Source: Strigamia acuminata
Lineage: Eukaryota
DNA length: 64,000 nt
Assembly: GCA_949358305.1 (NCBI GenBank)
Contig: OX442314.1
Coordinates: 17,112,001-17,176,000, forward strand
Reading direction: 5' to 3'
Part shown: positions 7,795 through 42,400 of the stretch, one piece after another
How positions within the stretch are numbered: the stretch's first letter is position 1
Layout of the letters: every line of letters begins with the position of its first letter
Notes under the pieces: generated by a model
Told to the model about the DNA's origin: nothing
The model's database searches: none
Seen by the model: the letters and a program-made list of their open reading frames with translations, nothing else
Translations under genes and position numbers: made by a program

Positions 7795-7833
7795 ATTGAT
7801 TCAATAAAACAGATTTCAAATTCAGTCAATTTA

Positions 7834-10334: not shown

Positions 10335-10802
10335 TTAAAGAAATCTTTTCATCGCATCATTTTCTGTTCCTGAGTCCTCAACTTCACGTTCCGCCGGCTT
10401 CTTGACAGTCACATCACGTTCTTTGGTGAACACATCATCTGTTCAAAACAGCGATGGGGGGGAATAAGGTTTTATTTTCAACTAAAACTATATCTGTTCT
10501 TGAAAATCACAATATTTTAGCGAGACTTACCGAGCGATGTCACTATGGGATCTTTAATTCCGTACAATAATCGACGAGGATTTTGATCCGGTGTTTGCTC
10601 TACCTAATTTCGGAAGTCGATTTTATCTCTATTTTAATTTAATAGTGAAATAGTTAGCAGTTACTTGAATCGGAGTGCGCACGATTTCCACGGTTGGCGA
10701 TCGGGGATCCACGTTGAGAACGCGACTGGCCATTTCAGAATTCGCAATATGCGATTCACCAGTAACCTTAATATCCCTTACTTTGCTAGTTGTTACACCC
10801 AT
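10335..10802 (-). CDS. CDCA3: short CDCA3/Tome-1-like protein (104 aa)
   Basis: Exons 10802-10665, 10603-10531, 10438-10335; MGVTTS (myristoylation-like start) and VDPRSPTVEIVRTPIQVE, resembling the CDCA3 DPRSP..I.RTPIQVE motif. Confidence 0.65.
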
Positions 10803-12258
10803 GTCTTAAAACGACTCAAAAACGAACAAAATTCGACAAAATGATTTTTTTAGAAAAAAGGCCCGACGGTTCTTAATCCATAACAAAACACGAGCAAACG
10901 GCTCTTCCTACTTGGCGCCATCGACGGCAGCGCCACACACTATTTGCGGCTAACAAAAACGAGTGTAAGAGCGCTTCATCTAAGAGAAAAACTTATCGAT
11001 TAGAGGGTTAAAGATGAGTGAACACTCGAGCGTTGATCCGATTAAAATATTATTCTTATATATTTTTTTTAATTTAAAAAGAAATTATTAAACAAAAGAA
11101 AATAATGAAGAAAATAAAAAATTAAATGAAAAGTTTTTGTTTTTTTTATTTCCTACCGCCGTCTATGCCACAAAACACGTCGAGTTCTGTAATTTCTATA
11201 CACATACATATGACAGGACGAAATGATACATTTTCTAACATGGTAATTTAGCAGTATTGATGATTATTTTTTTTTGTTTACTACCAAAAGTCAAAGTAAA
11301 GAAAAAAGCGCCCAATAGGGTGCACGGATTATTTGTTCAAAGGACTACTAAATAATTTCACATAAATCGCAGGAAGACCTATCTGATTTTTCAGATTTAA
11401 TTTAAAAAACGAAAAACGTAAAACAAAAAAAAACAAAAAACAAATTAAAAATTTTTTTTTGGAAATCCCAGTTTCAATAAAGTCTATCAGGTACTAACAA
11501 GAATAAAAAATAAAATGAAAAACTTTGTAAAAAGTAACGTGTAAAAATATTTTCAAAATCGAACATGTAAAATGAAAAGGCAAAAGCAGAAAAAGCCCAC
11601 GTATTTACGTATACGCACGCACACATACGGTACAGACGAAAATCTACAAACAACGTCTCTAAATATCGTTAGTATGCAAAATAAAAGTAAATGATACAAT
11701 TTTGCATAAGATTGCATCAACATGTACATTCCAATATGGCAGGTAATTTAAGTAGAGTACATTGAAAAAATACATACAAAGTTTTGCATCACAGTAGATT
11801 CGGTTACATCTAAAGATACGTATACAAAGAAAGAGCCCAGTCTAAAAGGAGCTAACGGGTTATATCAGGGAGGAGAAAGGAGGACACGACACGGGCGCCT
11901 CAAAGATCATGATCGACGGAGTCCAATCGCAACTGAATCCAAGATCGAATCGAATCGAATCAATCGAATTAAAGTGTAAACGCAACAAACAACTGTGTCA
12001 CAACTCAAATAGATATCCTTGCATCTATCTAACATCCGAAACCACATGACAGTTGACCGTAAGAAAAAACGCAAACTGCCAGTCGTAAACTCGTAATTTG
12101 ATTGAGGCCAAAGGCACAGGCCAACGCCGACGCCGACGCCACCCGCCATTCCCTGCCGCCCGTCTGCTTCATCGCTGTACGCACGGACGCAGCACGGACA
12201 TTGCTACGAACGCAGCGATGGACGCGGGCGGCTTATCACAGCTGAAGTTTGCGACATT

Positions 12259-18200: not shown

Positions 18201-20636
18201 GCTAAACGTGAGTTAATTTTTAAAAAGATTACGGTGGTTTGAAAAAAAATTAGAAAGGTGTGTATAATTGCTGGGTTTAGAAGCTGTGATAAAAAATGAA
18301 GATTGGACCGGTTAATAAATATAAGCCCATTTCCTTGCACGCAAAAAAAGAGTAAATAAAAATGGCGACAACGAGTGAGTGTGAGCGGAGAAAAAATAGA
18401 CGCAGTTTACTGTTTAAACAGTGGCTTTTAGGAGAGTTGTTAAACGTGTTGTGGTTTTTTACAATGTGAGAAAAAAATTGAAATGCTAATAAATCTTGTT
18501 TAAGTAAACCGAAGAATTAAATGAAATAAAAATCTGTTTTTTTCTTCTTAATTTGTTGTTTTGTTTTTCTGTTTCTTATATAGATAAAGAGAAGAATTAT
18601 AAAATTTGGTGAATGTTTTTTGCTTTACATTTAATTCTATAGAGAAAAACTAAAAAATTACGCAAAATTGAATGCGATGAACTATAATTATCGTTAAAAA
18701 AATATTTATTGGACTAAATTTGCATGTATTTCAATGGAGCAATAAGATATGTTTTTCCGTTTGATAAATTCGTTACCGACAATCACCGAAATCTAAAAAT
18801 GAACTGAAATTTTTTTAAACTAAATATTCAAACTATAGAATATAACATGGAAAAAGTACAAGCACATTCAATACACCAATCTAAATGGAAGATTTCACAT
18901 GTTAAATTTTCAATTTCAATTTACACCGGCTTAAAATCTAAAAACAAGTTTAAATGAATTTAAAAACGCGTCTAGTATTCCATAAATCAAAGACTAATTC
19001 AACAATAAACCCTTGTTTTGTCCATCATTGAGCTATCAAAGAATTTTTCATTTTTTCTGAAACACTCATCCGTGCAATTAAAAAAAAATACGACCAAAAA
19101 AACTACACGCACACACCACACACGAAAGAAAAAAGAATGGACAAAAACTGGTTGTAACAAACAACCGAATTAGCGTGAAAAAAAAACACAAATAAGAGTG
19201 AAAAAATGAACATGAGGTTATATTTTATATTATCAACGGCAGCCGGAAAATAACGGTATACCCACAACCCATAAGAAGCTGAAATTCGGCTGAAATTACA
19301 TCCGAGCGAACATCAAGTTACGAAACCATAAACTCGACTAATTCCTAAGATTGTATTTAATTAAAAACCCGTAGTAGTATATTTAAAGTAACCGGAACAA
19401 TTGACCAAACTAGAGTGTTATTCATTGGCCAATATTAACAACATTCTGGTTCTCCCCAGCCGCAATGTGCAGTGTCCAGTCTCTCTCTCGCTCTCTCTCT
19501 CCATCTCCCTCTCCCACTAGCCATCCAGATCGTGTCCACTCACCATTCATTCACCAATGAGAAGGAAGGGTTTAATTTCTTACCTGTGTGTAGTCGTGTG
19601 TGCTGCTGGACATGAGATAGTTGCTTGAATCTTCTTTCACAGTAGGAGCACTTGTAGGGCTTTTCACCCGTGTGGATTCGAATGTGCTGAACCAACTGAT
19701 GGTTACTGGAGAACGACTTGAGACATTGCTGGCACTGATGAGGCTTCAACTCGCCGCGATGAACCTCACGAGCATGGTGCTGCATGGCCGACTTGTGCAA
19801 AAAGATCTGCACAAACAAACACACACACAAAACTGACCACACCCGACGAAAACCACACCAACAACAATAACAAGATATAACCCATAATAACAAAAACAAA
19901 CTACCACGACTATGAGTGTGAGCAACCAAAAGGAGTTTAAAAAAAAGGATAAAAAATAAACCCCGAACCACAAAGTAATAACCCTTTGGTCTCGTCCATC
20001 ACGACTCTAGCCGCCATCTTGAAGAAGACCGGTTTCACGACAACCCTTTAAGCTCCAACCGATTTATTTCGCACCTGCAACGAACTCAACGTAGGCCCAG
20101 AAGCAAAAGGCGAAGGACGGGGACCGCCACATGCGATCGGGGAAGAGTCGACCGAATCGGCCTCAGATCGCGACACGGCGCGCTGGGATGGACCCACCGC
20201 GTTCCCGTGAAGCGAATACGAGCCGCCGCCGCCGCCGCCTCCGCCCCCGCTCCCGTTGCCCGTGCCTGATCCATCGTTGTTTTGTTGTTGGCCATTGTTC
20301 ACCTGAGGAACTCCGCTGTTTGTACCCTGAAACGACAAAAAAAGCAAAATTGATTCGAAAAAAGTTGGCGATAAAAAGAATGTAGCAGAAAGACGAACAA
20401 AAAAGTATAAAGAGAAAAAACAATGTTGGAAAAAAAAGATACAGCAAGAGGCCATGAGCGAAACACGCAAGTGAGACGCGGCGCAGACGCCGGAAAGAGA
20501 TCGACCGCGGGTTGCGTAAAAAAAATAAAAAAGGACAGCAAAGCCGGGAGTCTTTCGGCCGACGTTGTGTAAAGACTTAAAAGGCATCGATGGACACGGG
20601 ACTCACCTGATGAGAAGAGGAACCCAGAGGAGCCAT
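12259..20636 (-). CDS. dati: datilografo-type (LIN-29/ZNF384/ZNF362 family) C2H2 zinc-finger transcription factor: 7 complete fingers plus the C-terminal half of finger 1
   Basis: Exons 20636-20607 (tentative start), 20326-20075, 19806-19584, 16238-16054, 15949-15817, (13039-13031), 12837-12670, 12593-12259, all phase-compatible; [88 protein letters not shown]. Confidence 0.85.
13031..13039 (-). CDS. candidate 9-nt microexon of the dati-type unit
   Basis: cattgcatttttatattaactgtag|CGAAGCAAG|gtaagt; phase 1-1 as required by the flanking exons, changing S to TKQG before KRRMANHPC. Confidence 0.6.
14290..14340 (+). repeat. (AAT)n microsatellite
   Basis: About 17 AAT units with one GAT interruption. 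Confidence 0.9.
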
Positions 20637-21186
20637 GGAGAGCGCAATCCTTTGCGCTCAGCGTCGGCAGCTCATGAAGAACCGCTCGGTATTAAGCATT
20701 TACATTTTTTAGATGAGGAGAAAATCAATAATTTTTCCAAAGCGGCGTTCAAGCGTGCGTCCCTCCCCCAACCAGAGAGAGAGAGAGATGTGCGCGCGCG
20801 CAAAAAAGGGGCGCCTCGAGCCGAGCCACATGAATACTTGTCCTGCTGGGACAAGATGGCGGAGGGTGGGGATGGGGACAGCAAGAAAAAGGTGCCACAA
20901 ACGACAACGGGGTGTTTTTATGATAAACAAAACAAGCCATTAGTGCGACAAAAATAAGCATACACACCCTCCCTTACCGACGTGCAATGGACGCGCCGAA
21001 AACGCAGCTGAAAGGGGTTGATCATTTTGACACCGAGGGAGAGAGATACCACGTTCAACCCTTTGGTCCCAACAATCAGGGTCCGGGAACGCAGCGTCAA
21101 AAAATCAAAATGGTTGAAACGTCAATAATGAATGAGGAAAAACGGGCTCCACAAAGGGCGACCACATTCAAAAAGAACCCCAAAAA

Positions 21187-21217
<31 letters not shown>

Positions 21218-24200
21218 AAATGAAAGAATGAATGAAAGTTAAAAAAATAAAAAAAATCTGAAAAAGTGGTTTCGCGTTTCATCTTACCATTGGAGAGGAC
21301 TCGAGTGGTATTTGTAGGATTTGACTTGACCACATTTTGACTTTTGTGAGGTGAACCAACGCCAGCGCTTTCTTAAGGACGCAAATCCCCCGCACCTCAC
21401 CTCAAAAGTCTCACACACCACCCCCACAATGCTACCGTTCTCACCTGAAACTATGTGGGAACTCGATGGTCGAGCTCGTTATCAGATCCAAGAGGTAAAC
21501 AAAGACACAAACACACAATCACATACACAACCAACGACACTTTACAGCAAAAAATATTGCTTCGGAAAAAAAACGACACACCCCCGCGCCATGAGGTGAA
21601 GCACCTGAGAAATAATCAAGCTTAGGCGCCACTTTTTCTTACCGCCTGGCTTATCCCAGGTGAGTCAGCCCCGATTGCCCTTAGCGTCTCTTTGCTAAGA
21701 TTTATAGGCTGTAATTTCAACAAAGTATTGTAATTAAGCATAGCGAACCACAAGAAAAACTCATCAACGTGGACTTCTTTTGACAAGAACCTGTCCCTCG
21801 TCATCAGTGAACGCTAGTGTACGCTACCATAGTGTGTTTTAATGAAGAAAATGTGATTCCGTGTGCATAAAAAATACAGGGCTTCGTTTTCAATTAAAAA
21901 ATAAGAGAGAAAAAGAGAAAAAGAGAGCGAGGAGGAGAGAAAAGAAATTGTGAATCGGTCCCCGTTACCCTTCATTTCGCTCGTTTTCGTGTAGCGTTTT
22001 TGCCCACCCCCTTTGGGTGCCATTAATTGGCTCGGTTAATAAGAGATCGCCCACCCAGCCGACAATTACGAGGCCAAGGTACGTATCTGGTAAAGAGGGA
22101 GGTAAAAGGAGGAGAGGAGAGGAAAGGGGGTTGTGAGGGAGGTGCTAATTTGTGCTTTGTTTCCGCACTAATTCAATTTATACAACTCGAAGACACTCCG
22201 CCGCCATTAAAGTGAAGCTAACAGAATTTCGAGTTGGATTGACGAGCCGTGCCAAAAAACACCCACTGGACACACAAATTAATAAATGATAAAGAAGGAA
22301 AAGGGGAAAAAAAAGAAGGAGAAAGAGAAAGGATAGAGAGAAACAAAGATGGTGGAAAGCTTTGACGTCATCATGTTGGTCAACATCTCCCCTCCCTCTC
22401 CGTTCAGCCTCTAAACATCAATAGGACCAAGGGGCGGAGGATGTAAACAAGAGACACGAACGCAGCTGGTCACAACAGCACAACGGACTCAACGGGTTAA
22501 GACGTTAAGACAAAGGAAGGAGCGTGAAAAATATGGCGACCGATGTCGGATTTAGGAGCTGCGGGATCAAAGGTGAGAAAAAAGTGACCGGTTTCTGTGG
22601 GAGAAGATGAAAACAGAGCGAGGGGAACGAGGAGGGGGAAATTCTCATTAACGATCCGAGATGACTTCATCTTAGGAAATTAATAAATTAATTAAAGATG
22701 AACGTCTTGGGGCTTACGACTTATTAAAAACTAGAAGCGAACGCGAAAGGCCAAAAATCTAAAAACGCATATGGGTGGGTAGAGAAAAAATTGCCGAAAA
22801 AAGGGGAACGCTTCGAAAAAATAATTAAAAAAACAGAAAAACAAACCATGCAAAAGAAACAGTCACAGAAAAAAGTTTTTTCTTTTTTTTTCCCGTAACC
22901 TTTAATTAACATGTAGTGAAATAATTAAGAAGACGGAATATTCGAAAACTGAGTGGCGGGTTTCTGAAGTGAGTGTTGAACCCCACGAAAAGCCACCCCT
23001 AAGACACCCACCTCCACTCCAAACAGAAAAGAAATTTCCCCTCCCCCGTTCCACTCACTGTTGCGGGGAAAGAAAAGGGAGTCGTGGAATCCCACTTGAC
23101 TCAACCTGGCTCCTCACCTGGCCATTCCAGGCACGTGCTACCACTCTACAAAAGGTAACCTGCGACTATACCCGATCGCGCCACTATTTCATATACCTAA
23201 TTCTGCATTCGGGCCGGATTTAATTCGATTTATTCATGGTATTTCTAATTCTTGCCTTATTCTTTATTTATTTATTTTTCCTGCAGAGAATTAAATGCGG
23301 AGAAATTGAGAGACAAAGATGGTTTGAAGATAAGCGAAGACAATACGGCAATGGGAGAAAGATGAACGTGTTTCTATCCGTTAGAAACCACTCGAGTTGG
23401 ACCGGATTTGAAAGCTGTTGTTGGTGCTTTGGTTTTGGCTCCGTGTTGACTGTTTGCTGTGAGACAAAAGAACCCAACCCCCAACCAACCGATTGAAAGG
23501 ACGTGCAGGACAAAAATGGCCGCCCCAACTCAAGTGACAACTTGAAGAGGATTTGGATAAAACAAAAAAAGCGTTTTGGATTTATAAGATGATTTCGTAA
23601 CTGAGGTTTTATAAAAATCTGCGAATTAGGGTTCGAACTTTCGGTCCGTTTTACCGACATATAAACTAGAGATAAAATTTCAAACGAAAAAGAAAAAAAA
23701 AAATGGAGAAAACTTGTGCAGTGTAATTAGAGCTACCTCGAGGAAATTTTAATCACTTTTACCTGATCAAAATGGAAATTTAACTGCACTCTCACTCAAA
23801 TTAGTAGAGTTGCATTTTTTTCCCCTCATTTTTCTAATATCTTTGAATATTCAATGCAGAGCGACGCCTCATTGGTCGATGCTGGTCACACGAACCACTC
23901 AGCATGGAGCAATGGCCGCCGCGTGAATGATTGCAAATGAGTCAAATGTCAATTAGGGTTCATAGACTGGCCGCGAACGCCCTCGGACCGTTCGCAGACG
24001 CAACGGGTTAAAAATGAGAACTGAAAAGCCAAAACGATGAAGTGGAAAACGAGATGGCGATGAAGATGAAGATGAAGATGCTCCTACCTGATGTCGATAT
24101 CACGATGAGTACAGAAGAGGAGGAAGAAGATGCGCATCGTCAACAAGATGCCACAGGAACGCAAAAGTGGTGTGCACCCGCGGGAACGCTGTACAAACGC

Positions 24201-27200
24201 CGATTCACTAACAACATTGGCCGGCAGGGCACAAGGGAGTTCTTTTTCCTTCGTTTTTTTTAAAACTTTTTTTTGGTTTCAAGGAGAGAGCGAGGTGACG
24301 CAGGCCTCACGTGAAAAATCCCTTGAGTTATGAGGAGAGGCGCCATTGTTCCACTCACTGTTACTTCACCTGAATCACCCGAGCTGAAAGGGTTAGACAG
24401 GCACCTGAGGAGGGAAGGGGATTCGAAGAGGGGATCCACCGTACTGCCTCATTTGAATGTGCAAGAACCTCATTTGCATAACTTGCCCGCAGCTTTCTTC
24501 TCTCGGAACGAAAGGGTTACGCACTGATGGCACACGAGCCTCGCTCGAGGACCCGCTTCAAAGAAACTGATTTCGAGGGAGCCAACTTCCTGGCCAACAC
24601 CCACGCCCCCACGCGACCCCAAAACCCACCTAACAGATGCGAGAAAACAAACAAACAAACAATTCTCAAACCCGCAGAAACATAAACCCATCGAGCAAAC
24701 CCTGTGCGAGATATGCAGAAACGCAACGCCACTTCAAAGGTTAACTACAGTTCGCCCAATGACCCGACTCACCTGGTCGGAGGCCACATCGATCCGCCAA
24801 ACCGCGCTATAAATGATCCACCAGCCGAAAGAAGGAAAGAAAGAAAGCGAAACGAACATTAACGACAAAAAACGAGTAATACAACTGAGTAATAATAAAG
24901 ATCGTAAATAAAAAATAAACATCATGTTTTTCCGAAAAATAAAAACAATAATAAAAAGGTGTAGAAGAACGCGGGTGGTTGACAAATGTCAACTTGATGG
25001 CTCCATCAACAAAGACAAGGCACAATTTCAGGGGCTTGAAAACAGAACATTGGACTCGTACTCCACAATTACAAGGCGCACACCTGAGTTTTTCATTTAT
25101 CCCCTAAGTGGGTCTTTTTCCCTTCGCAAGACACCCGCTTCGTTATTAAAACAATAAAAAAATATTCACTTTTTTATATCAAAATGGGGATGATGAAAAA
25201 GATGAGGACAGCAGCTGGCTCACCTGGACGAATTTTAAGGAGTAGGGGCTAATTAATACATACAAACACACACACATTTCCAACGACTTTTCCCCCACTG
25301 TCTTAACGACTCAAATACTAATTCAGTAACAAAAAAATTCTGTAATGATTAAATTATTTTTTTAAAAACAAAGAAAATTAAAAATATAAAAAATATAATG
25401 ACCAAGGGGCATCTAGAAAATAATTAAAGTCAGAAATGTGCTTCATTTCCAAAGCCAAGAGAATAAAAACGCCCGAGAACGGCCGGCATGAAAAAAAATC
25501 CGGCGTTGGTGGTTTGTGTGAAGATCTAGATTAAGGGAATGATAAGAAATGTTGGGAGGAGGAATGTAAAGAGGGGGACATCTTCCTCCGCCCCTCAATC
25601 TTACGGCTGATTAGCCACACACAAGGAGGAAAGTGAGCAGCGGGTCCCTTCCCCATACGGGGTAAGCAATAAAAAAAAGAATAAAAAAGAAAAAAAGAGG
25701 GACGCGAAGGGAAGGTGGGAGAGAGAGAAAGGGAAAGGGAAGTTGTACGCAACGCACTTGGCACTTGGACATGTTGAAGTATGGGAAGGAAAAAAATTTC
25801 ACGGCCATATTTTAAACGGGAAAATAAACATAAGCCTTAATAAACGGAGCGCAGTTACGCGGAGCATCATCTAGACGCTGAATAGTCGCCATATTGAACG
25901 CGCGATGAAGTTAGAGCGGGTGGGGAGATGAGGGAGGGGTCAACGAAGGCCAGTGGTCAAATGCGATACCCACCACGTGAGCTTGAGGGGGTGGTCCTTG
26001 CGTGTTGAGTGGTCTCATGATGCGTCGTTGGTTGTCGAGCGGCGGTGCGTGGCTCATCGATGCGTCTCGGCGCGTCTCGGCGATGCGAAAAAATCACGAG
26101 CGCAAAGGGGTGCCGCCGACTCGACTCGACGACCAACACTTTTTCGTTGGGCGCGGCCATAAAAATCCCCCTCCCCCCATACCCATCTTTTCTCCCGCAC
26201 CCTACACCTCCTTGTTTATCGTCAGCAGCGAGAGGCGACGTCACAGCTCAGTGTGGCAATCAATGGCAAGAGCCAAGGTGCCTCCCTCACCGAGCGTCTC
26301 CTCCCTCATCCTACACACCCCACTTCTCATCCTCGCGCTCGTTTTCATCTTGCCTGCAATAAAATGGCGCCCTCTTTTTTATTTCTCTTTGCATTTCTCG
26401 TGTCCATTTTCTCCGTTTCTGCACAAATGGACGCGCGAGGACTTTGACTCAAGTTTCCGATATTTCGCATCCCTTAGACACTGCCGTTTATCACCCTTTA
26501 AACCCGATGTTCCGATGACGCATTCGTAACGCAGTAATGGCAAAGGATGGGTGGGAGTCGTGAGTCACGCATCGATCGGAGCTCGGCCCGAAAGGGGAGC
26601 ACTGACGTCAGAGCCGCCGTCGCCACTGAATAAAGAATATGCAAACACACGCGGAGAAGGCTGGGAAATCATCAATAATCCTTTGCTCTTCGCTTTTTTC
26701 GCTGCACCCGACACCTTCTCCGTGGTCGGTCATTCACATAATCCGAGAAAAAGATGGACACGTGTTTTATTTTACTTTTTATTTTTTTTTTTAGAATTAA
26801 AAAAAATAAAAATAAAAATTAAGGAACATTGACCTCGAGAAATTTAAATATACACAAACGACAAATCAAACGCAATTTCATTTGTCTGAATATTCTCGTG
26901 TTTCACTCAAAATTGACTCATGGCGTCTCATCAGAACAACGGATCATCTGAAGATGCGACGCGTGCCTCCTTATCAAATATTTTAATCAATTTTTTTTCT
27001 TTCTTCAAAAAATTAAATTTGATTTTTCCGTTTGCAAAAAAAAAGGAAAATGGAAATGGAAAAGGTTTGTTTGCTCACAAATTGAGAATAAAATTATATG
27101 ATTGAATGAGATGATTTCTTTGATTTGTTTGTATCACGCATATTCAAATGGCATTCAGCAAGTGCCAGGTGACAAGTTCGTGCTTGGTTGGCCAGGTGCG

Positions 27201-28693
27201 TGGTCCGTTGGTGCAAAGTATTCATTTCCTACGGAAATGAGGTAATAAGCGCTTACTGCATCTGTTGTCGTTGTATTTTTCTGGTGGGACGCGTCTCTTG
27301 ATTTGCCGATCCCCTCCACTGGACGTGCCTCCCTAGTCGGCTCATCTTTAATTTTGCTCAGACAAATCAGGCAAACAATAAATTCATTACAAATACAAAT
27401 GTAGAAAATTGTATATAAAAAAGTTAATTAATTAAAACTAAAAAAAAAAATATTATATTTAAATTTGTAAAACAAAAAAGTTGTGTCATCTGTTGTCGGC
27501 GTCGATCGCCCAGTGGGTCTCGTGACCCTGTCTTTGTATCTTCCCCGACTGCTTGGGGTTGGCGGAATAGAAGGGTTATATTCAAATCCAGCAGCAGGAC
27601 TCAAAGGGTTAGTGATGGCCATCGGAAGGAAGCGGTCCATTCAGAGTGGTTTAACTGGTCCTACAGGATCCGAGAGTTTGCCATCCACCATGCCACCCTT
27701 CCTCCTTCTCTCCCTCCCCCTCCTTCCCCCCATATATTTTTCCTTGCTCGCATTCACCTCATAAATATGACGTTGCTTGTTGTTGTTGTTTATTTTTTAA
27801 GACGCATCAGCCCAGATGGTGAGGGAAGGGGTAAAGAGCGAGATGCGATCAACGATGCAGACCACGCACACTGTTTGCCTCGCGGATAAAATTTCATCGC
27901 GGCCAGGAAACGCGCGCGAGGGACGATGCCATCATCATCATCACCATCATTGAACGAAACCGTGATCGATGTACGGGGATTCACCACCCACGCTCGCGCC
28001 GCCAATGAATAAGACACGGCCGACTAAGGCTGGGTGTTGCCATGACAATCAACGACCAATGGAAAGAATTCTCTCCAATCGCAAAACGCACGAACCACAT
28101 AAATTAACGAACGCTGCACAACGTCGACCCCGATGCAATTAAAGAAAAAGAGCTACACCTGCTACTCGGGGATCACCCCTTACTCCCCAACCCGCATCAT
28201 GAATTAAATACCCTGGAGTTGTAATAAAAGAGAATGGATTTTTTAAATAGCTGCTTACCGGATTATTTTTCAGGTGAGATGATGGGACGTTTTCAAGATG
28301 AGCTGGTCATTGATTCAGTACTGTGTGCTTCGGGCCGGTGTTATTACATCGTGTCGTGATCGTGATCGTGAATGAAGACGAAGACGGTGGAGTTGAGAAG
28401 AAGAAATTCTGACCCGTTCCCTCAATTTTGATTGCTCACACACACAAATGGTCGATGGTGGCAGTAATTGAAAAGTTTACGTTGTGTGAAATTTGGCTTA
28501 GAATCTTTTTTTCTCTCTTTTTATACTTAATTTTTTAATGTTTTTTGGAGAAGTTGAATTTTAAATTTGCTTTAGTGTTAAATTGATTTGATAAAATTTA
28601 GCGTGTCGAAATGAGAAAACAATTGATAAATAAACAAGCGGAAATGAACCATCATCGACCAAATATACGAAGAAATAAGCAGGAAATAAGGCA

Positions 28694-28745
28694 GCTTACC
28701 TGTAAAAAAAAAAAAAAAAAAAAAAAAAGAAAAGAAAAAAAAGGT
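28694..28745 (-). other. candidate recursive splice site (ratchet point)
   Basis: Minus strand reads T25-ACAG|GTAAGC, junction 28700/28699. Confidence 0.6.
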
Positions 28746-31700: not shown

Positions 31701-32819
31701 GATTCAACTCAATCAAATTCAAGTACATACCGTAGCTGCTAATGAAAAACTAACGAAATGAGCAGCCGGCTGTTCATGAAGAGAAAACTGGTATGTGTTT
31801 AAAAACCAAAAAAAAAAAAAAAGAAAAAAAAAAAAAAAGAAAAAAAAATTCTCAAGCCGAAAAAAACGGTGTCGAGTTGCGATCACATATCGATAATGAC
31901 CGTAAGGAGGCAAAGAAGAAGACAAGTAGAATTATGGAAGACGACGGGAAATGGGGACGAAGGTGAATGCAAATAACGAGTAATTATCCCGGTAATGGAT
32001 GGTTGTACTTAACCGGAGCCAGCAACGGATGCCGGAACGCAGAAACGTGGGAAAACAACGGCCAACAGTGGCCAAAAGGGAATGATGATATACAGATGAC
32101 CCCAACCATTTTCCTTTCCAATTTTTTCCCTCCCCTTTTCCTTAGTTAAGTTCACTTTCTTCATCGCTTTCTCTCCCCTTTTTTCCTGTAACCTGTTTGT
32201 CCAGAAATCGTCTAACCCTTTGGTGCCAGTTGACAAAGCAAGCTGATGGTGGTGAATACAGCCGCAACCCTTCCCTTCCATCTCTGCAACCCTTTCATCC
32301 CGAGGTTCGAGGAAAGGGTTGAGCTCGATGTGTTAAAATCAGCAGAATAAATAAGCAGAATGTGAGGAGAACGCCGGCGTCGTGGGAACGGTTCCTGCTC
32401 CGACTCGGCCTATGCAGCCTTAACCCTTTCAATACAAAAGGGGATCGAGCTAAAAGAGGGTCCACCTGGAATGCCAAAAAAACTGGTCAGAGTGGACGCG
32501 GGCCAATGGATCCCCCTCGTCGCGCATCAGCAATTCGGCTCAGTTTAGTGGACACTATGCAAATCAACGCCGCACCCTGTTGGCAACACCTGCCCTTTCC
32601 TCCATCCCCCACTTACGGCCCAAGAGACGTTTTTCTTTGTTTGTTTGTTTGTTTGTTTGTTGTGCTTTAAAACGCGCGTCTCTCTCTCGAGATATCTGCG
32701 TTATTCCATCCATCAAGGCGACACATTTTTCGTCATCAAAAGTAATCAACTTTGATGTATTTCTAACTAGGTCCAAGTTCGATTCCCCTCGACAGTGGAG
32801 GAGGAGCTGCGTCCCTCAC

Positions 32820-32965
32820 GGGGGCCAATATGGGCGCCCGTGCCACGAGCCCTCGTCACGACGCCACTTCCCTATTGGAGGGCTGCGCGTTCGCCCGTCC
32901 AATTGGGGGACGTCATATTAATGAGCCACGAGGGGGACGCGGGCGTAAACCAACGCCCAATCAGC
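32820..32965. promoter_or_regulatory. CCAAT-box cluster in a GC-rich island, possible promoter/enhancer between the two zinc-finger units
   Basis: CCAAT/ATTGG at about 32825, 32874, 32899-32906 and 32957 within CpG-rich sequence. Confidence 0.35.
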
Positions 32966-35900
32966 GAGAAAAAATCCCCCGTCGAATAAGACGCGCAGAG
33001 GACATCTAGAATGTCCCCCACACCGAATATACGATATCGAAAATTGGTGGGGCGAAGGGGGGAGGGAGTAAAGGAAACAAAAAAAAATCCAATCTTACTT
33101 TCTACGGCTTTTAATAAATAACATTTTATTCTCGCCATCAATGAACCCTTTATTCACAGTTGGTGTCAACGACCAAAATGGACGGTCACGCACCCCGACT
33201 CCATCTTTGAATCTGTGCTCGCAGCATCCCGATCATCCATTTCCGACTCGTGTTATAAAAAATTATACGTGAGAAAAAAATTGTTTTTTTTTTAATATTT
33301 CCGCTTTCTTCCCCTTCAGGTGCAAATTATCGTCATACCGGAGGATCTTAACACCTTTTTTTCTAATTTAAAAAGGAAATAAATTTTAATATTAAATTAA
33401 GCCTCTTAACAACTATACTTCGACCATTAACTTAAACACTTTGGAAGTCTTAAAAAAATCTAAAACTGATTGCACATTTTTTTTTTCTAAAAATATTTAT
33501 ATCGGAGTTATTTACTGGTGAATCTTTGCATCGTACAAATACCCGTAAAAATCGTTATGGAATTGTGAAGAAACGAAATGTTAGCAACGTTAATTTCGAG
33601 TTAAATATGAGCTGTATTAATGTTTTAATATGCAAAAAAGTTTCGCGGTGGTTTATAATTAATACACAGAAGAGTTAGTGGTACCTATAAAAATAATGAT
33701 AATAATAAAAAAAGACGAATGGCTTAAATGAACTTTATTCGAAGCAAATATACTGAGATAAAACTTGTACAATATGTGATTACTTGATTCGACTGACTAC
33801 TCAAAAATTACCTCAACCAGGTGTCTACAAAAGGATGACTACGCGTAACAAGAAACACGGGTGAGGTGCTGTCATGCGAATCACCTGAACGTACGCGTCT
33901 CCTCCTTAAAACGCCCGCGTCCCGACGTCTCAAAATTTTAAAAAAACGAAAACAAAAATTGCAAAGAAAAGGGCCAACCCGCCAAAAAAAAATTACGTTA
34001 AAAAGAATCAAAACAAACAGGGAAAAAATGATCAAAATGACACTTTTTTTTACAAGGTGCAAAAAAAATATATATCATATACAATATGTAAAAAAAAAAA
34101 AAATTATTATAAAATTAATAATAATAATAATCATAATAATAATTATAATAATATCATGGTCCAATAAAATATAAAAAATGGTTTTATTTTTAAGTCAATG
34201 TGGCCTCTAAGTACAATTTAAAGAGCTCGTGGCTCATTCTGTTGGTCTTAGACCTCGCTGCAATGATACACTTAACAACAATTTCACATAAACAAACCTA
34301 TTTTTTTTTCATTAAAATAAAAGAAGGAGACGCGTGTAAACCCAATCAAATTGACAAGGAATATTGAGCACGTGTATTTATTGCAGCTGCGAAAAACACT
34401 CGCGTGACGCGCATGACAGCAACACCCAAGCAACAAAAAAATTCGCCAAAGGGAGCAAATAAAAAATCAACACAAATCATTACGTATTCCTCATCAGAAA
34501 ACAATATTTTTTTTTTAAATAAACAAAAGTTCACAGCACGTTAAGGTGGAGCTGCGTCGTATATGAAAAAGTCATTGTCATTACTATGTATACTATATAC
34601 AGGTGTGTCCAATGCGCGCCACGGGTCGTGGCTCAACGTGCGAAGAGGCAAAAAATATTTGCAGGTGAAAACAAAAATTACAATTCAAACAAAAAAATTA
34701 AAGTTTACAAGGAAAGAAAAAAAGTTGCTACTTTTAATTTTTTTTTTCTTTGAAAATTTTATTTAAAGGTATAAAAAAGAAGGGAAAGAAATATGGAAAA
34801 AACGCCGCTCTCCTTAAAACGAACCCAAGACGCAGATTTTTATTTTTATTTTTTTTTTCGAAAAAAAAAGTTGAAAGACGCGCGTCTCTTAATGAATCAC
34901 TGACATCGAATGCCACGGTAATCAACTCTTTCATATTTTAGACAGCGTCTCACACTGTTTCTATCAAAAAATTAAAAATAAAATAACGGGAAAAGATAAA
35001 CAAAAATAGAAAAAAAAAGAAGAAAAAAAAAAGAAACAACCTTCAACATTACAACCCGCAACCAAAAAAAACAGCAACCAACGCCAACACCTGACGATAA
35101 ACGCGTCTTAAAAATTGGGATAATTTATTTCTTCACAAGAATTGTTTAAACTTATTTTTACTTTTTCAGATTTTCAAATCAAATTATGAAAAAAAAAACA
35201 AAAAAAAAAATTAAATTCCAAATAAAAGACCCTCTCGGTCATTAAATTTACAACCAATAATATAATAATTATTATAATAATAATAATAAAAATTAATTAT
35301 CTCTTTAACTAGTCATCGCATGACCATAATATAACATGCCCCTCTGAGGGTCTGAAAACAGCGTTTTATACCAAGACTAACAACAAACAGTTTAACTGAC
35401 AGCAAAAAAGACAAAAAAAAAATTAAAAAACAAGAATTAAAAAGAAAATAAAAATAAAAAATACATTCGAGGCCAATGCGCATATCACAGAACGAGATCC
35501 ACGGAACGCAATGAGACGCCACACAGTGTGATATCCGCATGTGGGCGGCCAAGGAAAGAGAGAAAAATATATAACAGGATTCATTATTTCTTCTAAAATA
35601 ATAAGGGATAAATCGAGTGCTCGAACATGTACACAACTAATACTCACCCACTCACACATCAAACATACAACAGACATGCGAGTGTGTGTGAAAGGAGCCT
35701 GACATATACACGTACAAAGTGTATAAAACGACCCGTTTCCACTCATGACTTTGGCTTCGAAGGGCGACAAATAATTAAAATCGAAATTAAAAATAAAAAA
35801 TCATTATCAACTAGAAAGAAAAAAGAAATATGGCGTCCGAATAAAACTGGGACGAGTTGAGCAAAAGGTTTTTTTTTTTTTAATTTTTTTTTTTAGTATT

Positions 35901-36088
35901 TTTTTAGTTTATGCTTTTTTCTTTATATGTAATGAACGTGACGCGGACGCAGCCCATAGAGTCCTACAATTTTTTTTCTTTCTTTTTCCCAAATATTTTT
36001 TTTTATATATACTTTTTTTTTTTAGAAAATGTTTTTCTAGTTGAGCACACGACTCAGCTTATTGCACGTAAAAAAAAAAAAAAAGATT

Positions 36089-36122
<34 letters not shown>

Positions 36123-36471
36123 AAAAAACCATTATAAAAAAAAACAACAACAAAATAAAAAGCAAATAATGAAGGAAAAAAAAACAAAAAAAGAAGAAAA
36201 TTAATTAGAGAACCACGATGAGGACGCGGGCGGTTTCGATTTGTGCGTCCATCCATTCATCCGTCCGTCCAACGTCCGTTGCGCGTCTCGCTCGCTGACT
36301 CCGCCCCGGAGGCACACCTCATGGCCGCCGATCGAGTTCGAGGTTAACTTTAACTTTAACTTGGTTTAAAAACTGATTTTTGTTATTATTATTCTTATTA
36401 GGTATTATTTGTGATTGAATTTGTGTTGTTTGTTAAATTAGAGTTGATTAAACTGAAATTCACACCGGCTG

Positions 36472-39400
36472 CTATTGGGTTTTCTCCTTGAGGCCGAGCG
36501 AGTGGTCCGACGCGCTCATCGTGGGCATGGTTGCATAGTTTCTAATTTGGTGCAAAGAAATGAGCTGATTTGGAAAAGAACTACCCGCGGGTTTCACGTC
36601 CATCGAAGACACCTGGCCGGGCGCCTTGGGGAAAGTAACAGGTTCGTAGGGGAAGTAGGACCGAGACGAACCGGGCATGGACAACTGTGACGTCGAAGTG
36701 ATAGGCAACATAGCCTGGATCGGGGTAAAGGCGGACGACGAGGTCTTACCGGCAGACGAGCCGATCGGACCGTCGTAAGGAACCTGCGATCCGGGCAAAT
36801 GGCGCAGATCAGCGTGATCGGAAGCGGCACCGCCCATGGGCTGCCGGTGGTCGAGCGACTCGCGCACTGACGACAGGTGGAGACGCGAGTGCTCTCCCAG
36901 CGTGGACTGCAGACACGAGTCGTTGATGGAGGAGTCGTGTTGCGAGTGCTGAGCGGCGGCTCGCAGATGCGACACGGCATCGGCCACAACGTCCTGTGCC
37001 GTGGGTCCGGGCCCACTTTTCTGCCATGCATACGTGTCGTTGGGCGTCCGTACCGATGCTGCCATCATGACGGCTGATCCGACGCCGGCCGCACCTCGTT
37101 TCTCAGCTCTCTCGGCATGTTTTTGCAAGTGCTTGTTCAGATAAGTCTCTTGCGTGTAGGACTTGCCGCAAAACTGGCAGATGTGAGTCTTGAGGTGCTT
37201 CGACTCCTTGTGCTTGGGAATATGTTCGAGTAGACTGGCCTCGTCGGCGAAACACTTGTAGCAACTGTTGCACTTGTATGGTTTGTCAGTCTGATGGCAT
37301 CGAGAATGCGATTGCAAGTTGCTCAGTTGCGAGAACGCCTTGTTGCAGCCTGGATGTCGGCACTTGTACGGCTTGTCGCCCGTGTGCGTGCGGATGTGCT
37401 GCTGCAGGTGGGACAGTTGAGTGAACTTCCGCTGGCAGATCTCGCAGCGGTAAGGTTTGATGCCCAAGTGTATCCGCGTGTGCTGAGACAGGTACGAGGA
37501 GTTGGCGAAGGCCTTGGAGCATTGCGAGCACTTGTAGGGTTTTGCTTCGCGCATGTGTATCTGAGTGTGTAGCTGCAAGTCTGCCTTGGACCCAAAGATC
37601 TGCAAAGAGCACAGAAGAGACGGATGGATGAGTGAGGTCAAATCTCGCAGAGTGAGCATAGCAGAGGCACGAGGCCCCGAGTATTGCCACTCCCACCACA
37701 GAAAAAAGCCACGACAGTAATAGAACATGAGCTAACAACGACGTCAACCAAACGACCAAACGGTCGTTTCATTAACCTCGAGGATTTTATACAAATACTT
37801 TCAAATCATTATATACAATTCTCCAAATATATATAAACATTCTCATCTAATTTTTAATTTTTTAACGCAATCATTAAATAATTGCGATCCTTCTCTACTG
37901 GCTCAACAATTTTATATCCAACCCGTGATTGACCGTGATCGACTGATGTGATTGATTTTTTTTTACATTTTTTTATGCAGACACGCGGAGGATAGAGATG
38001 AAAACCAAGGCATGCAGCTGGACACGAATCAGATGACACGAGAAAAAAAGGATAGAAAAAAAGGGTGAGGAGGAGCAACAGGGAGACAAGTGCCATAATG
38101 ACATAACACCCACGACAAGGTGAAGAGGGGTGGGGTCGTGATGGTTTGAGGTGATGGGGGGGGGCATCCCCTTCCCCAGGGAGGATCGACAACTGGCATT
38201 GAGCGCGCGCTTTCATTCCCCAACACCTCCCCTCCGACACTTTAATGAGGGAGGTTTTCAACGCGAGGGGACAGCACAATGGTGATACTAGAATGTGGGG
38301 GGAGGGGGTCTTAGAAAAACCCTGGACTCGACTGCACAAGGCCAATCGTCACTCCCCCGACACACCCACGCTTCTTAACCCACCCCGAGAAGAATTTTTT
38401 TTTTAAATTCATTCAAAAAAAAAATATGTGAAAAAAAAAATGTGCAATGTGTAAATAGAGAATAAAAAGAGTGTTTAAGAAGAGATATCCTCACATCGAA
38501 GACACCTGATAGGGGCAGTATAAAAAGGGGACACGAAAAAAATACGCAGGGGCACCGAGTCGTCACTCACACACTAAACGACAGCACACACGAGCCAATT
38601 AACACATTCCCCCCTCACCCCAAAACACTTGAGGTAACTGCAGGATTCCACCTGACACACGCGAAATGCGCATCAGACATTCAAAACTTGAGATGTTTTT
38701 TCTCAACTTTTCTTAGACATTTTTTTTCTCAAATTTTACTGATAATTCCTAATTTTTATTTCTAATTTTTTTTTTTTACTTTAAAAAAAAATAAACAAAT
38801 CAACGAGTGAGGTCACCACGGTTGACTTTAGCCTTTGTAATCACATATTAACTTAATCTACTGACCTTTGAGACACTTTTTTAAAAAAAAAATTAAAAAA
38901 GAAAAATATTTCATTTAAAATAAAAAAAATAAATAAATAAATAAATAAAACTTTTTTGAAGTGGCTCGTCTCTCATCGGTCATTGGGAGCTGTCAAGTCG
39001 AGACCACACGAGAAAATTTGTAAGGTGTTTGGAAAGGGTTAATTCATAAGATAAACGAACGGGATTTATTCGGGATGTGAGGTTAAAAGGGTTAAGTGTT
39101 ATATTTTGACAAATTACGACTTTTCTAATTCCTATTTTAGGAACAGTATCTCCTACCTGTGGACACATCTTGCATTGGTATTTTCGGCCCGAACCGTTAG
39201 CGTGGGCGTGGGCGGCGGCTGCGGCAGCGGCGGCGTTCAGTGCCGGTTTGGCCACGGCATTTATGGGCTGTGGTACGACGAGCATGGACGAGCTCGTCGT
39301 AGCCGTGGACACCGGCGGGCTGTTGCTGCTGCTTCGGTTGCCGTGATTCCCGTAGATAGAGCCGTGCATACCTGGAGGTGGCGGCAGCGGTGCTTCCATG

Positions 39401-42400
39401 CTCCCCGGCCGAGGCTGATCGTCCAACGTACCTGCAAAAATATCACATCCACATCAACAAATAGCCGCGCAGAGCGCACCGGCAAATAAACACCACCAAC
39501 TGCTGCAAAAACGCAGTCGCGATACAAAAACTGCAAACACCCATGTTTTCTCCGCTCGCCCGCTCGTTCTTTTCTTTCTTTCTAATCACCGCGTCCAGTT
39601 TTAACCCACCGGCCAATGGGACTCGGTGGTGACCACGCCTCGAATCCCCACACTCAAACTACTCGAGGACCCTTTTCTTCTCCACCGTCACTTCATTTAC
39701 ATGCCACATTCAGATTATCATCGGCTCCTTTTTTTCTTGTTTGCAAAAGCCTAACAGGTTTCTAGAGTCGCCACTCGTGACTCGATCGCCACAAAACCAC
39801 ACCTGATTAAATAACAAGCGAAGCGACCCATCGCAACTATTTTAAGAAACGCTCTTTGTCTTAATTCTTTCTTATCGCCAAATTTATTCTCTTTATTTTC
39901 GCTCCGTCTATATCTATATCGTCTATCCAACAAGTTTGTTGATATTGTTTTCCTTTGCGTTTGCTTTTTTTCCTCCCGTCGATCGTAATTCATTTTTGCA
40001 ACTGTACCCGTATCAAAAATGGATCCTCTTAAACTTTTAAGAGATGTCATCAAACAGCAAGACGGCGGTAGTCATGACAACGGGGTTTCTTTCACATCAT
40101 ATTCAAATGGTATAGAACGCGCAACTCGCCTCCAAAAATGATGGTTGGACACACGGCGGCGCCGCGTCCATCATCCACTTTTGTTTGCTCATTAAACCTT
40201 AAAGAATTTAATTAGATTCCAATCCGAAAAGGCGCATTTCTCACTGCTAGAACGCTTTTCTCTCCACATTTCACATGTGGGAGGTACCCAAAAATAACTC
40301 GCGTACAGAGCGCTAAAGGGTCACCGAAAACAAAAACAAAAACAAAAAATCACTTACCGCCTGGATATTTGTTGCCATGACTCGATCCGTTTGTGCCTGC
40401 AAAAGAATTTCAAAAACAATTTTCATTTTAAAAAATAAACACATTAAAAAAAAAAATAAAATTCATTCCTCCATAAAAAAAAAAAATTAAAAAAAAAAAA
40501 TTAAAATAAAATAAAAAATTATTTTTTTTATTAATTAGAAAAAAAAAATTCAATTAAAATAAATAAATAAATAATGCACAGAACCGAGCGAGGAAGTTCC
40601 ACATATAAATAAACAAAGAGTTTAAAAAAGATTGAGCATCCATCCACAAGACCCCATCAGTAGCACCCCCCTAAATAAAGACGATGACAGTGCACAAGAC
40701 GCTATAAAAAGAACACCACAACGAACTTACCGCTAACATTTCGGAAAAACTCCCGTAACTTGAAGAGCGAACATAACTTCATCTCAATCATTTTGTCATC
40801 TTTAGCCATGGAAGAAGAAGAAGAAGAGGAAGAGGAAGAAGAAACGAGGCCCGGAGATGAGACGCCGCTTCTTTTCCTCACTTGATCCTGATGGGGAGGT
40901 CCTGAACTCCAAGAAGAACGCCACGAGATAAGAAGAGAGAGAGAGAGCAAATTCGGACGAGCGGGGGGCACCCACCGTGCAGGGGACCCCGCGGGCCAGT
41001 AGGGAGGGAGGGGGGCTCACGATGGCCCCTGCGCCTGAGCACACAGTGCACGGCGCGCGCTCCAAACACGCCACCGACCAGCGACGCCCTTTATCGATTG
41101 GCCGACGACGACGCAGCGAGCGGCGCGCGCGAAACGCCCACGCTGGCCAACCGAGCAGTGGACCCGACCGGCCAAGAGGGGGGGAGGAAGAAAACCAAAC
41201 CGAAAAAATAAATGTTGTTTTTTAAAAAAAAAAAAATGAAATGAAACGTCGGATTCGCTTGAAAATCAATAAACGAAAGGAAGGAAAAAAACAAACTCGG
41301 AGCCAAAGAGTTAAGGAATTCGGATTTGATTTTAAAAAACAAACAAATAAATAAAATAAAATAAAAAACTGTGGTAGGAGCAAATTAAGAGGGAGTTTTA
41401 CCTGAGACACAGGTGGTACGAATAAACCTCGAGCAAATGGGGCGGAGAGTGGGGGCGGCCAAAGAAAAAGACCGAACGCCGTGGCTCTCCCATGGCAGTC
41501 TCAGCGTCGGACGCGGCTCATCACACGACTGACACGTGCGTCGGCGACTCGCGCCAAAGAGCGAATGAGACCGCAAAGCAACATGGGAATCGTGGTCAAC
41601 TCGGGTGAAGTCGACCGATGGTCGCGGGGTGGACGCGCATTCACCTCCGCCCACTCAATGGACCCGCCCGTTGACCACTCCAATCCACCCCCGTCTTAAA
41701 TTAATTGACCCATTTCACGCTGCCCTTCCTTCCCCACCCACGCGCATTCTCTCGTCAGCGTCCGTCTCGACCACGCCCAGCTCAACCCGAGACAGACGCC
41801 AGCGTTCGGACTCGACACCACCAACATTTCCAAGGGGTGAGTGTGGCCGCATGCCACAGCAAGGCGGCCGCCATGGCGTGGCCGAGCTGGTCGATCAACC
41901 TGCCTACAGCAACGTCTCCTTCCATAATTACATATCACCACCCCCGCGTCCCCGACCCTGCACGATTCGGACACTGTCGCCAGGGACGACTCACCACGGC
42001 GTCTCCTCACCACGTGTCGTTCCTTATTCGGTCGACGACCGCGTGCGTCTCAGCTGAGCCTCCTTCGCTCTACGGGGGTCCGTCTTCCCATTTTACACTG
42101 CGCGCTCGATACGAGGGGCCCGTGCTTATCTCGCACCTGTGCCCACGGACGCTCGGGGACCCTCCCGAAACCGCTCCCAGGACCTCGCTGGCCCCCGCTT
42201 TCATTTCTCACTTTGCATTCTACTCACTTTTCAACTCTTGATCCTCCACCATGGCCATACTCTTAGCGTCGACACATTTTCAAAATGGAGGGAGGCCGCA
42301 TCGTCACTGGAGAGAATAACCGATCATCCTCCTCCGCCACCCCAACCTGTTCCACGCCTTTACTACCCTCTTATTTTTTTCAATATTTCCTCCCAGACCC

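What the first reader, a model, noticed from the sequence alone, without database searches (positions are those of the whole stretch)
19584..39431. One locus, two DNA-binding cassettes? A shared half-finger exon can complete finger 1 of either the rotund-type or the dati-type array
Seen: exon 39431-39157 ends ...KYQCKMCPQ in phase 0. The rn cassette starts ag|IFGSKADLQLHTQIH (37599) and the dati cassette starts ag|[16 protein letters not shown] (19806), both phase 0 and both beginning ATCTTT. Either join gives a canonical finger (C-x2-C-x12-H-x3-H or -x4-H). The exon directly upstream of the dati cassette (20326-20075) ends SSLQ with no CxxC, and by eye I found no CxxC-bearing exon between 20.7 and 36.4 kb. 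Established: rn, sqz and dati are separate genes in Drosophila, and alternative 3' zinc-finger exons are known from BTB genes such as lola, fru and broad. Inference: an internal duplication of the 3' cassette made a composite gene in which splicing/polyA choice swaps a 6-finger for an 8-finger domain on a common N-terminus. This may be the state from which the separate fly genes arose.
Basis: partly seen in the sequence, partly recalled or inferred. Interest (0 to 1): 0.88.

Follow-up and report, generated by a model that had tools for sequence, protein, structure and literature searches.

The report
One ancestral gene behind rotund, dati
In this centipede, one gene start carrying half a zinc finger sits in front of two alternative DNA-binding ends that are separate genes (rotund and dati) in flies; spider, scorpion and horseshoe-crab gene models join that start to either end, so the two fly genes likely arose by splitting of one alternatively spliced ancestral gene.

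Summary
Observation confirmed. A phase-0 exon ending in the two cysteines of finger 1 precedes a rotund-type and a dati-type cassette. Both joins give open frames, and I found no credible private CxxC exon for dati. The window is a Strigamia-like centipede. In 9 of 9 chelicerate RefSeq isoform series examined, rn-type and dati-type proteins belong to one gene; 8 of 9 contain pairs with letter-identical N-termini. The rn-then-dati tandem recurs in millipede, sea spider, spider, tick and mite models. None of 120 crustacean and insect dati proteins has the CxxC half, yet 98 keep the orphan second half, which has lost both histidines in Drosophila. A composite gene is therefore likely ancestral, and dati likely split off in Pancrustacea. 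Limits: I could examine no RNA from this species, so the join here is inferred. A well-formed private leader exon (20326-20075) may also drive a finger-1-less dati. Fly Rn and Dati match similar poly-A sites. The design resembles FoxP and tramtrack; six literature searches found no description for rn/dati, and the scan had not noted it on other DNA.

The parts
54005..54124 (-). first coding exon of the common N-terminus (from ATG)
   Evidence: matches the start of Strigamia maritima T1JKT8 (P0122); GT donor; in frame
43962..44150 (-). common exon 2 (ALVWSP, HWMSMMAEH, HYMWNGVE motifs)
   Evidence: conserved in chelicerate rn- and dati-type isoforms
43222..43264 (-). common exon 3
   Evidence: AG/GT; homologous to the TKMN...KG stretch of chelicerate proteins
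40358..40396 (-). common exon 4 (39 nt, frame-neutral)
   Evidence: present in P0122; AG/GT
39157..39431 (-). shared half-finger exon: VVPQP motif, ends with the two Cys of finger 1, phase 0
   Evidence: the exon end at CPQ is conserved across arthropods
36472..37599 (-). rotund-type terminal cassette, one exon: helix half of finger 1, fingers 2-6, tail and stop; several AATAAA follow at 35.1-33.1 kb
   Evidence: fingers 2-5 are 94-99% identical to 12 other arthropod rn rows and 83% to the tick
28694..28740 (-). ratchet-point-like site (poly-T CAG|GTAAG) near the middle of the 19.35-kb skip intron; possible recursive-splicing stepping stone (inferred)
   Evidence: best acceptor of 832 AG sites and one of 7 AG|GTRAG among 833; found post hoc, 16 of 100 shuffles reach one such site
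20607..20636 (-). candidate private first coding exon for dati (ATG to a strong donor)
   Evidence: donor ranks 4 of 1150; no homolog found
20075..20326 (-). phase 0-0 open exon without CxxC: candidate private leader or finger-1-breaking cassette
   Evidence: acceptor rank 4 of 832, donor rank 19 of 1150; the only open phase-neutral exon of 150 nt or more in the interval; no match among 421 stored proteins
19584..19806 (-). dati cassette exon 1: helix half of finger 1, fingers 2-3
   Evidence: 83-96% identical to arthropod dati-type proteins
16054..16238 (-). dati exon 2: finger 4 and most of finger 5
15676..15949 (-). dati exon 3: last His of finger 5 and finger 6; donor at 15817 (long form) or read-through to a stop at 15676 (short 6-finger form)
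   Evidence: the read-through tail starts with a basic stretch and ends PSFLNL as in spider P0096, similar in scorpion-like P0093
12670..12837 (-). dati exon 4: finger 7 and first part of finger 8
12259..12593 (-). dati exon 5: end of atypical finger 8, [12 protein letters not shown] motif, tail and stop

Best explanation
The window holds a single rotund/dati locus in which common 5' exons end in the two cysteines of finger 1 and are likely spliced either to the near rotund-type last exon or, skipping 19.35 kb, to the dati-type exons, an arrangement that is likely ancestral for arthropods and from which insect and crustacean dati likely split off. Mechanism: (shown) both joins are in frame and complete a C2H2 finger whose whole recognition helix comes from the cassette. 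(Shown as annotation) chelicerate genes carry both joins on identical N-termini. (Inferred) polyadenylation after the rn exon gives the 6-finger rn protein, while read-through with skipping gives dati proteins with 8 fingers or, by read-through at 15817, 6. (Inferred, weak) the site at 28699 may let the long intron be removed in two steps. (Inferred) the locus arose by tandem duplication of everything downstream of the conserved CPQ intron before chelicerates and mandibulates diverged. In Pancrustacea an internal promoter gave dati its own start, after which the orphan half-finger decayed.
For: Open frames and canonical fingers for both joins. 9 of 9 chelicerate isoform series with both cassette types sampled contain rn+CxxC and dati+CxxC isoforms, and 8 of 9 contain pairs with identical whole N-termini of 114-284 aa; Tachypleus LOC143223043 and LOC143254306 carry both types under one gene id in the names, LOC143230575 by names plus consecutive accessions. 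41 of 56 chelicerate/myriapod-type dati half-fingers among 421 stored proteins follow CKMCPQ directly. One unnamed Logan protein (P0093) has the join in a single 536-aa frame on contigs of at most 3176 nt, which I read as cDNA. Tandem order is conserved: consecutive models in Chamberlinius (CHUAL_007129/007128), Pycnogonum (CAM1308646/647) and Oedothorax (JTE90_028797/028796), and fused rn-then-dati models in a tick, two mites and Limulus. The tree of fingers 2-5 splits 14 rn rows from 23 dati rows at 100/100; the window's dati is 93% identical to Drosophila pseudoobscura dati and 55% to its own rn. Pancrustacea: 0 of 120 dati proteins have CKMCxQ or rn N-terminal motifs, 98 keep the half-finger, none of these with CxxC before it, and 18 of 18 Drosophila proteins lack both His.
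Against: No RNA of this or any myriapod was seen. The millipede, sea-spider and Oedothorax GenBank models treat dati as a separate CxxC-less gene, and 15 of 56 half-fingers are not joined to CKMCPQ. The window has a well-formed alternative leader. Keeping both His is no proof of a join: barnacle, ostracod, louse and whitefly proteins keep them without CxxC (5 of 98 in register, 2 more with the second His one place further). A junction pattern found 0 matches in metagenome contigs. RefSeq isoforms are computed models whose read support I did not see, and many rows are isoforms of the same genes. The pancrustacean set is the best 120 of 200 hits to a louse query within 350-1117 aa and is mostly insects. 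No onychophoran or tardigrade sequence was examined, and the tree is unrooted. The ratchet-like site is not significant alone (16 of 100 shuffles).
Confidence: 0.8

Rival explanations
1. In this centipede rn and dati are already two tandem genes: dati starts from its own promoter near 20.7 kb (exons 20636-20607 and 20326-20075) and lacks finger 1, as in crustaceans and insects, and the shared-exon join is limited to chelicerates.
For: Strong splice sites and an open frame for the private leader. Myriapods are closer to pancrustaceans than to chelicerates (established phylogeny). The millipede model is CxxC-less. Many poly(A) signals lie after rn.
Against: The centipede half-finger equals a horseshoe-crab one letter for letter, including the His at +6 that crustacean and insect proteins have replaced. 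Tight tandem order is kept in centipede and millipede. The leader has no homolog among 421 proteins, and 91 CxxC-less dati leaders give no leader-like match in the interval. CxxC-less dati isoforms coexist with joined ones in Limulus (X4) and Tachypleus (X2, X10), so a leader does not exclude the join.
Confidence: 0.13
2. dati was born as an autonomous roe-type gene: the duplicated segment included an internal promoter from the intron after the CxxC exon, and splicing from the upstream CxxC exon was gained or kept only as an extra in chelicerates (and perhaps myriapods), so there was no true fission.
For: rn itself has CxxC-less isoforms from an internal start (fly roe uses a different promoter, PMC2889900 passage; stick-insect isoform X4). 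No outgroup was tested.
Against: Joined isoforms occur in horseshoe crabs, scorpions and spiders. The half-finger is intact where the tandem is intact and decays stepwise in Pancrustacea, as expected if a once-used finger lost its partner. Crustacean and insect dati leaders have no counterpart in the window.
Confidence: 0.05
3. The joined dati isoforms are annotation artefacts or rare read-through splicing noise.
For: Fused and intron-read-through models exist at these loci (P0044, P0074, P0080, P0369, P0122).
Against: Same join in 9 isoform series of 5 species, often as the majority of isoforms (5 of 8 in Parasteatoda, 6 of 8 in C. vittatus), plus a contig-derived protein (P0093).
Confidence: 0.02

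Closest known systems
Drosophila FoxP (and vertebrate FoxP1): duplicated alternative exon completing the forkhead domain (PMC3002244, abstract; PMC6372147, passages)
   Same: A DNA-binding domain split between a shared exon and tandem-duplicated alternatives; ancient; paralogues later keep one alternative.
   Different: Here the split runs through one C2H2 finger, the duplicated unit is a whole multi-finger 3' end (one exon versus five), and one ending became a free gene that left its N-terminus and half a finger behind.
tramtrack, broad, fruitless, lola (BTB-zinc-finger genes with alternative 3' finger exons; recalled, not read)
   Same: Common N-terminus, alternative terminal zinc-finger cassettes chosen by splicing and polyadenylation.
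   Different: No BTB domain (Pfam finds only zinc-finger families in P0094 and P0123); two cassettes only; finger 1 is completed across the alternative junction.
Drosophila rotund / roughened eye (PMC4683652 and PMC2889900, passages; St Pierre 2002 not read)
   Same: Same gene family; isoforms E/F and C share the last exons; alternative starts in front of the finger cassette.
   Different: Fly isoforms differ at the 5' end and share one finger cassette; here one 5' end has two cassettes.
Drosophila dati / CG2052 (PMC4188565, passages and section 18)
   Same: The window's second cassette is its orthologue by tree and identity.
   Different: Fly dati is a separate gene on chromosome 4 with no finger 1. 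That paper places the first true orthologue in Daphnia and, in the parts read, does not mention linkage to rn.
toothrin / dd4: fly paralogues proposed to take over splice isoforms of one ancestral gene (PMC11678306, passages)
   Same: Isoforms of a single arthropod gene become separate genes in flies.
   Different: There by whole-gene duplication, probably retroposition, in Diptera; here by likely fission of a tandem with a visible vestige, much earlier.

Membership tests
rotund / LIN-29 / ZNF384-362 family (rn cassette) | rn-type fingers 2-6 and the N-terminal VVPQP...KYQCKMCPQ exon | tested here: met
   87.7% to Strigamia T1JKT8 over the alignment; fingers 2-5 97-99% to most proteins named rotund
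dati (CG2052) orthologue (second cassette) | groups with insect dati; fingers 2-8 and [12 protein letters not shown] motif | tested here: met
   dati side of the 100/100 split, 93% to D. pseudoobscura dati over fingers 2-5
dati (CG2052) orthologue (second cassette) | independent gene with its own N-terminus, as in insects | tested here: inconclusive
   a candidate leader exists but has no homolog and no RNA support
C2H2 zinc finger (finger 1 of either join) | C-x2-C-x12-H-x3..5-H with aromatic and hydrophobic core positions | tested here: met
   (23.5 and 16.1 bits; 1.6 without the shared exon)
Transcription factors with alternative terminal DNA-binding cassettes (ttk/lola/FoxP kind) | common upstream exons and two or more in-phase alternative 3' cassettes | tested here: met
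Transcription factors with alternative terminal DNA-binding cassettes (ttk/lola/FoxP kind) | both joins present in transcripts | tested here: inconclusive
   annotated in 9 of 9 chelicerate series and one contig-derived protein; no reads from this species could be examined
Transcription factors with alternative terminal DNA-binding cassettes (ttk/lola/FoxP kind) | isoforms differ in DNA-binding specificity | not testable with these tools
   contact residues differ in fingers 1, 2, 5, 6 but are nearly the same in 3-4; fly Rn and Dati both match AAAAAAA
Tramtrack-group BTB-zinc-finger genes | N-terminal BTB domain | tested here: not met
   no BTB family in Pfam scans of the homologous full-length isoforms
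Recursive-splicing ratchet point | juxtaposed strong acceptor and donor inside a long intron | tested here: met
   28699: top acceptor of 832, followed by GTAAG; definition from PMC8605326 passages
Recursive-splicing ratchet point | splicing intermediate reads, conservation, downstream cryptic donor | not testable with these tools
   no RNA and no related genome available

The most novel reading that the evidence does not exclude
The centipede locus is a gene fission caught half-way: it still splices the shared half-finger exon to dati, in two steps through the ratchet site at 28699, and already has an internal dati promoter. The rn-versus-dati choice, two of the 17 shared birth-order factors of fly neurons, would then have begun as a splicing and polyadenylation switch in one gene that still runs neuronal timing in chelicerates and myriapods.
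Probability: 0.3. Interest if true: 0.82.

Novelty: new variant of a known kind. Interest (0 to 1): 0.66.

Why it matters
It gives a traceable origin for dati, a marker of late-born neurons and a regulator of female receptivity in flies (PMC4188565, PMC13538039): a duplicated 3' end of rotund that likely became independent, with a decaying half-finger as the mark of the split. Well-polarised fissions of developmental transcription factors with a graded vestige are uncommon (my judgement). Both rn and dati are among the 17 shared temporal factors of the fly nerve cord, so the locus makes testable whether a transcriptional code began as an isoform switch. Practically, gene-level expression or RNAi of 'rotund' in spiders, scorpions and myriapods would mix two factors, and orthology tables would miss dati there.

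Tried and rejected
No whole genome was held, so other rn/dati copies in this species were not checked. A degenerate junction pattern found 0 matches in metagenome contigs. The second scan returned 78 loci, of which 77 were generic poly-finger genes and one (L003) an insect-type dati exon with no rn exon on its 10.4 kb. The search of 50% representatives gave 60 hits: 4 dati joins, 4 rn joins, 44 ending at CPQ, 8 without CxxC; no new joined myriapod protein. PDB holds no close rn/ZNF384 relative among 37 matches, so no outgroup came from there. A private CxxC exon was rejected. Homology of exon 20326-20075 to crustacean or insect dati leaders or to the 22-aa horseshoe-crab insert was not found. 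Four labelled proteins, both millipede ones among them, were dropped from the tree because their models lack or duplicate part of fingers 2-5 or missed my pattern, and its bootstrap had not settled. Three chelicerate loci where I saw only one cassette type were left out of the 9-series count because only one or two clusters were sampled. Literature searches without a description of a composite rn/dati locus. Subscription papers (St Pierre 2002) and all supplements, including those of the dati and Strigamia genome papers, were not seen and could bear on novelty.
Full report
Observation. The minus strand carries a half-finger exon at 39431-39157 ending KYQCKMCPQ|gt in phase 0, an rn-type acceptor at 37599 and a dati-type acceptor at 19806. 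I traced four further upstream coding exons (54124-54005, 44150-43962, 43264-43222, 40396-40358). Joined in a script, they give stop-free frames of 597 aa (rn, 6 fingers), 569 aa (dati long, 8 fingers, the last with atypical His spacing) and 448 aa (dati short, 6 fingers, by read-through of the donor at 15817). Finger 1 is canonical in both joins, and its whole recognition helix comes from the cassette: positions -1/2/3/6 are S-A-D-L for rn and H-S-A-H for dati. It scores 23.5 and 16.1 bits on a profile of 527 unrelated fingers, against 1.6 when exon 20326-20075 precedes dati. Four chance-level C-x2..4-C-x2|GT sites lie between the cassettes (3.4 expected); none is credible.

Organism. The shared exon is 97% identical to Strigamia maritima T1JKT8, with scattered differences elsewhere, so this is a Strigamia-like centipede. 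No whole genome was held and no RNA of this species could be examined.

Chelicerates. Proteins with the dati cassette directly after CKMCPQ are annotated in Limulus, Tachypleus, Parasteatoda, Argiope, Larinioides, Stegodyphus and two Centruroides species. Sorting isoforms by accession series, contig and isoform number, 9 of 9 series where both types were sampled contain rn+CxxC and dati+CxxC forms, and 8 of 9 have pairs with identical whole N-termini of 114 to 284 aa. In Tachypleus LOC143223043, X1, X4, X5, X7 and X8 are rn-type; X3, X6 and X9 are dati-type; X2 and X10 have a 22-aa insert that breaks finger 1. That RefSeq alternative isoforms rest on transcript alignments is my own knowledge; I did not see the reads. 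One unnamed Logan protein (P0093, near a scorpion protein) carries the join in one frame on contigs of at most 3176 nt, which I infer to be cDNA. Of 56 chelicerate/myriapod-type half-fingers among 421 stored proteins, 41 are joined and 15 are not; the latter are separate or fused GenBank models, the 22-aa insert forms and a few alternative leaders such as Limulus X4. Many rows are isoforms of the same genes and are not independent.

Tandem order. rn then dati appear as consecutive models in the millipede Chamberlinius, the sea spider Pycnogonum and the spider Oedothorax, and as fused models in a tick, two mites and Limulus. A tree of fingers 2-5 (37 rows, 4 proteins dropped) separates 14 rn rows from 23 dati rows at 100/100; it is unrooted and its bootstrap had not settled. 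The window's two cassettes are 55% identical to each other, and its dati is 93% identical to Drosophila pseudoobscura dati. The duplication therefore predates the chelicerate-mandibulate split.

Pancrustacea. Among the best 120 of 200 hits to louse dati (350-1117 aa, mostly insects), none has CKMCxQ or the rn N-terminal motifs. 98 keep the orphan half-finger, none with CxxC before it; 19 models lack that exon and 3 lack the vestige. Both His stay in register in 5 (barnacles, ostracod, louse, whitefly), the first only in 58 (two of these have the second one place further), and 35 are shifted or lost; all 18 Drosophila proteins have lost both. The exon end at CPQ is conserved across arthropods. 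In a stick insect and a katydid, rn and dati are separately numbered genes on records of the same length, a weak hint of remaining linkage. In Drosophila rn is on chromosome 3 and dati on 4 (PMC4683652, PMC4188565).

How it likely works. Cleavage at one of the AATAAA signals after the rn exon (35.1-33.1 kb) would give rn; read-through with skipping of 19.35 kb would give dati. The dati acceptor ranks 9 and the rn acceptor 15 of 832 AG sites under a small weight matrix trained on this window. The best acceptor in the interval, at 28699, is followed directly by GTAAG, the form of a ratchet point (PMC8605326 passages). A second such site lies at 51126 in the 9.9-kb first intron. Two sites in the locus are reached by 3 of 100 shuffles and one in the skip intron by 16 of 100, and the plus strand has one of similar score, so this is a lead only. 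Exon 20326-20075 is the only open phase-neutral exon of 150 nt or more in the interval, and a strong donor at 20607 follows a short ATG frame. I take this as a likely internal start giving a finger-1-less dati, comparable to fly roe on the rn cassette (PMC2889900 passage; stick-insect isoform X4). It has no homolog. Such an internal start is the simplest route to the split seen in Pancrustacea (inference).

Function of the swap. Contact residues of fingers 3-4 are nearly the same in both cassettes (Q-S-H-Q in both; Q-S-N-S versus Q-S-N-Q), while fingers 1, 2, 5, 6, the extra fingers and the tails differ. Fly Rn, Sqz and Dati all match AAAAAAA in a motif table (PMC5453549). The two forms would likely bind similar A-rich sites and differ in flanks and partners. 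sqz was not tested.

Known systems and novelty. The design works like FoxP, where a duplicated alternative exon completes the DNA-binding domain (PMC3002244 abstract; PMC6372147 passages), and like tramtrack or lola (recalled), but has no BTB domain. Isoforms turning into paralogues is proposed for toothrin/dd4 (PMC11678306 passages). The dati paper derives dati from a rotund-like prototype and finds its first orthologue in Daphnia; the parts I read do not mention linkage. A tardigrade study reports a single rn in Hypsibius (PMC11562647 passages). Passages of PMC12965309 and PMC9712504 added nothing on this point. Searches found no account of a composite rn/dati gene, although the join is implicit in automatic annotation; supplements and subscription papers were not seen. 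The scan's index had no look-alike by sequence and only unrelated multi-cassette genes by words.

Verdict. Real feature, interpretation supported through relatives, junction in this species untested. New variant of a known kind; interest 0.66. It matters most as a likely fission with a graded vestige that links two fly neuronal birth-order factors (PMC13538039 passages).

Noticed in passing
window 51126 (minus strand): Second ratchet-point-like AG|GTAAG site in the 9.9-kb first intron of the locus.
   Followed up: partly
window 15817-15676: Read-through gives a 6-finger dati form; a basic stretch and a hydrophobic end (PSFLNL) recur in a spider isoform, a Logan protein and, more loosely, the millipede model.
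   Followed up: partly
P0102, P0104, P0413-P0419 (Parasteatoda, 91.9-Mb record); P0112, P0354 (Tachypleus): Some duplicated chelicerate loci showed only one cassette type in my sample, which may be independent sorting of the two forms after genome duplication; sampling was thin.
   Followed up: no
P0400, P0146, P0155, P0157, P0141, P0187: Finger 1 is also altered by inserts at the same junction: a 26-aa segment in stick-insect rn, 2-3 aa in millipede and unnamed JGI proteins, 22 aa in horseshoe-crab dati.
   Followed up: no
P0074, P0080 (trombidiform mites): Their dati cassette is strongly diverged and the fused models show no half-finger.
   Followed up: no
P0122 (UniRef T1JKT8): The Strigamia maritima model reads intron sequence between CPQ and the rn acceptor, breaking finger 1; likely an annotation error.
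   Followed up: partly
window 55300-61930 (minus strand): 3' exons of an upstream gene with long GC-rich introns; resembles the deubiquitinase USP48 (recalled; Pfam gave no hit on one 42-aa exon). Its introns may hold regulatory DNA of the rn/dati locus.
   Followed up: partly
window 1-10850: Abrupt change to compact genes with short introns: a dynamin-family GTPase like mitofusin at about 3.4-6.5 kb (PF00350), an LSG1-like GTPase at about 7.8-10.1 kb, a small CDCA3-like gene at 10.4-10.8 kb and a WDR33-like start below 0.5 kb (these three recalled; one LSG1-like exon had no Pfam hit).
   Followed up: partly
window about 700-1600: Low-complexity repeat tract giving repetitive open frames on both strands.
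   Followed up: no
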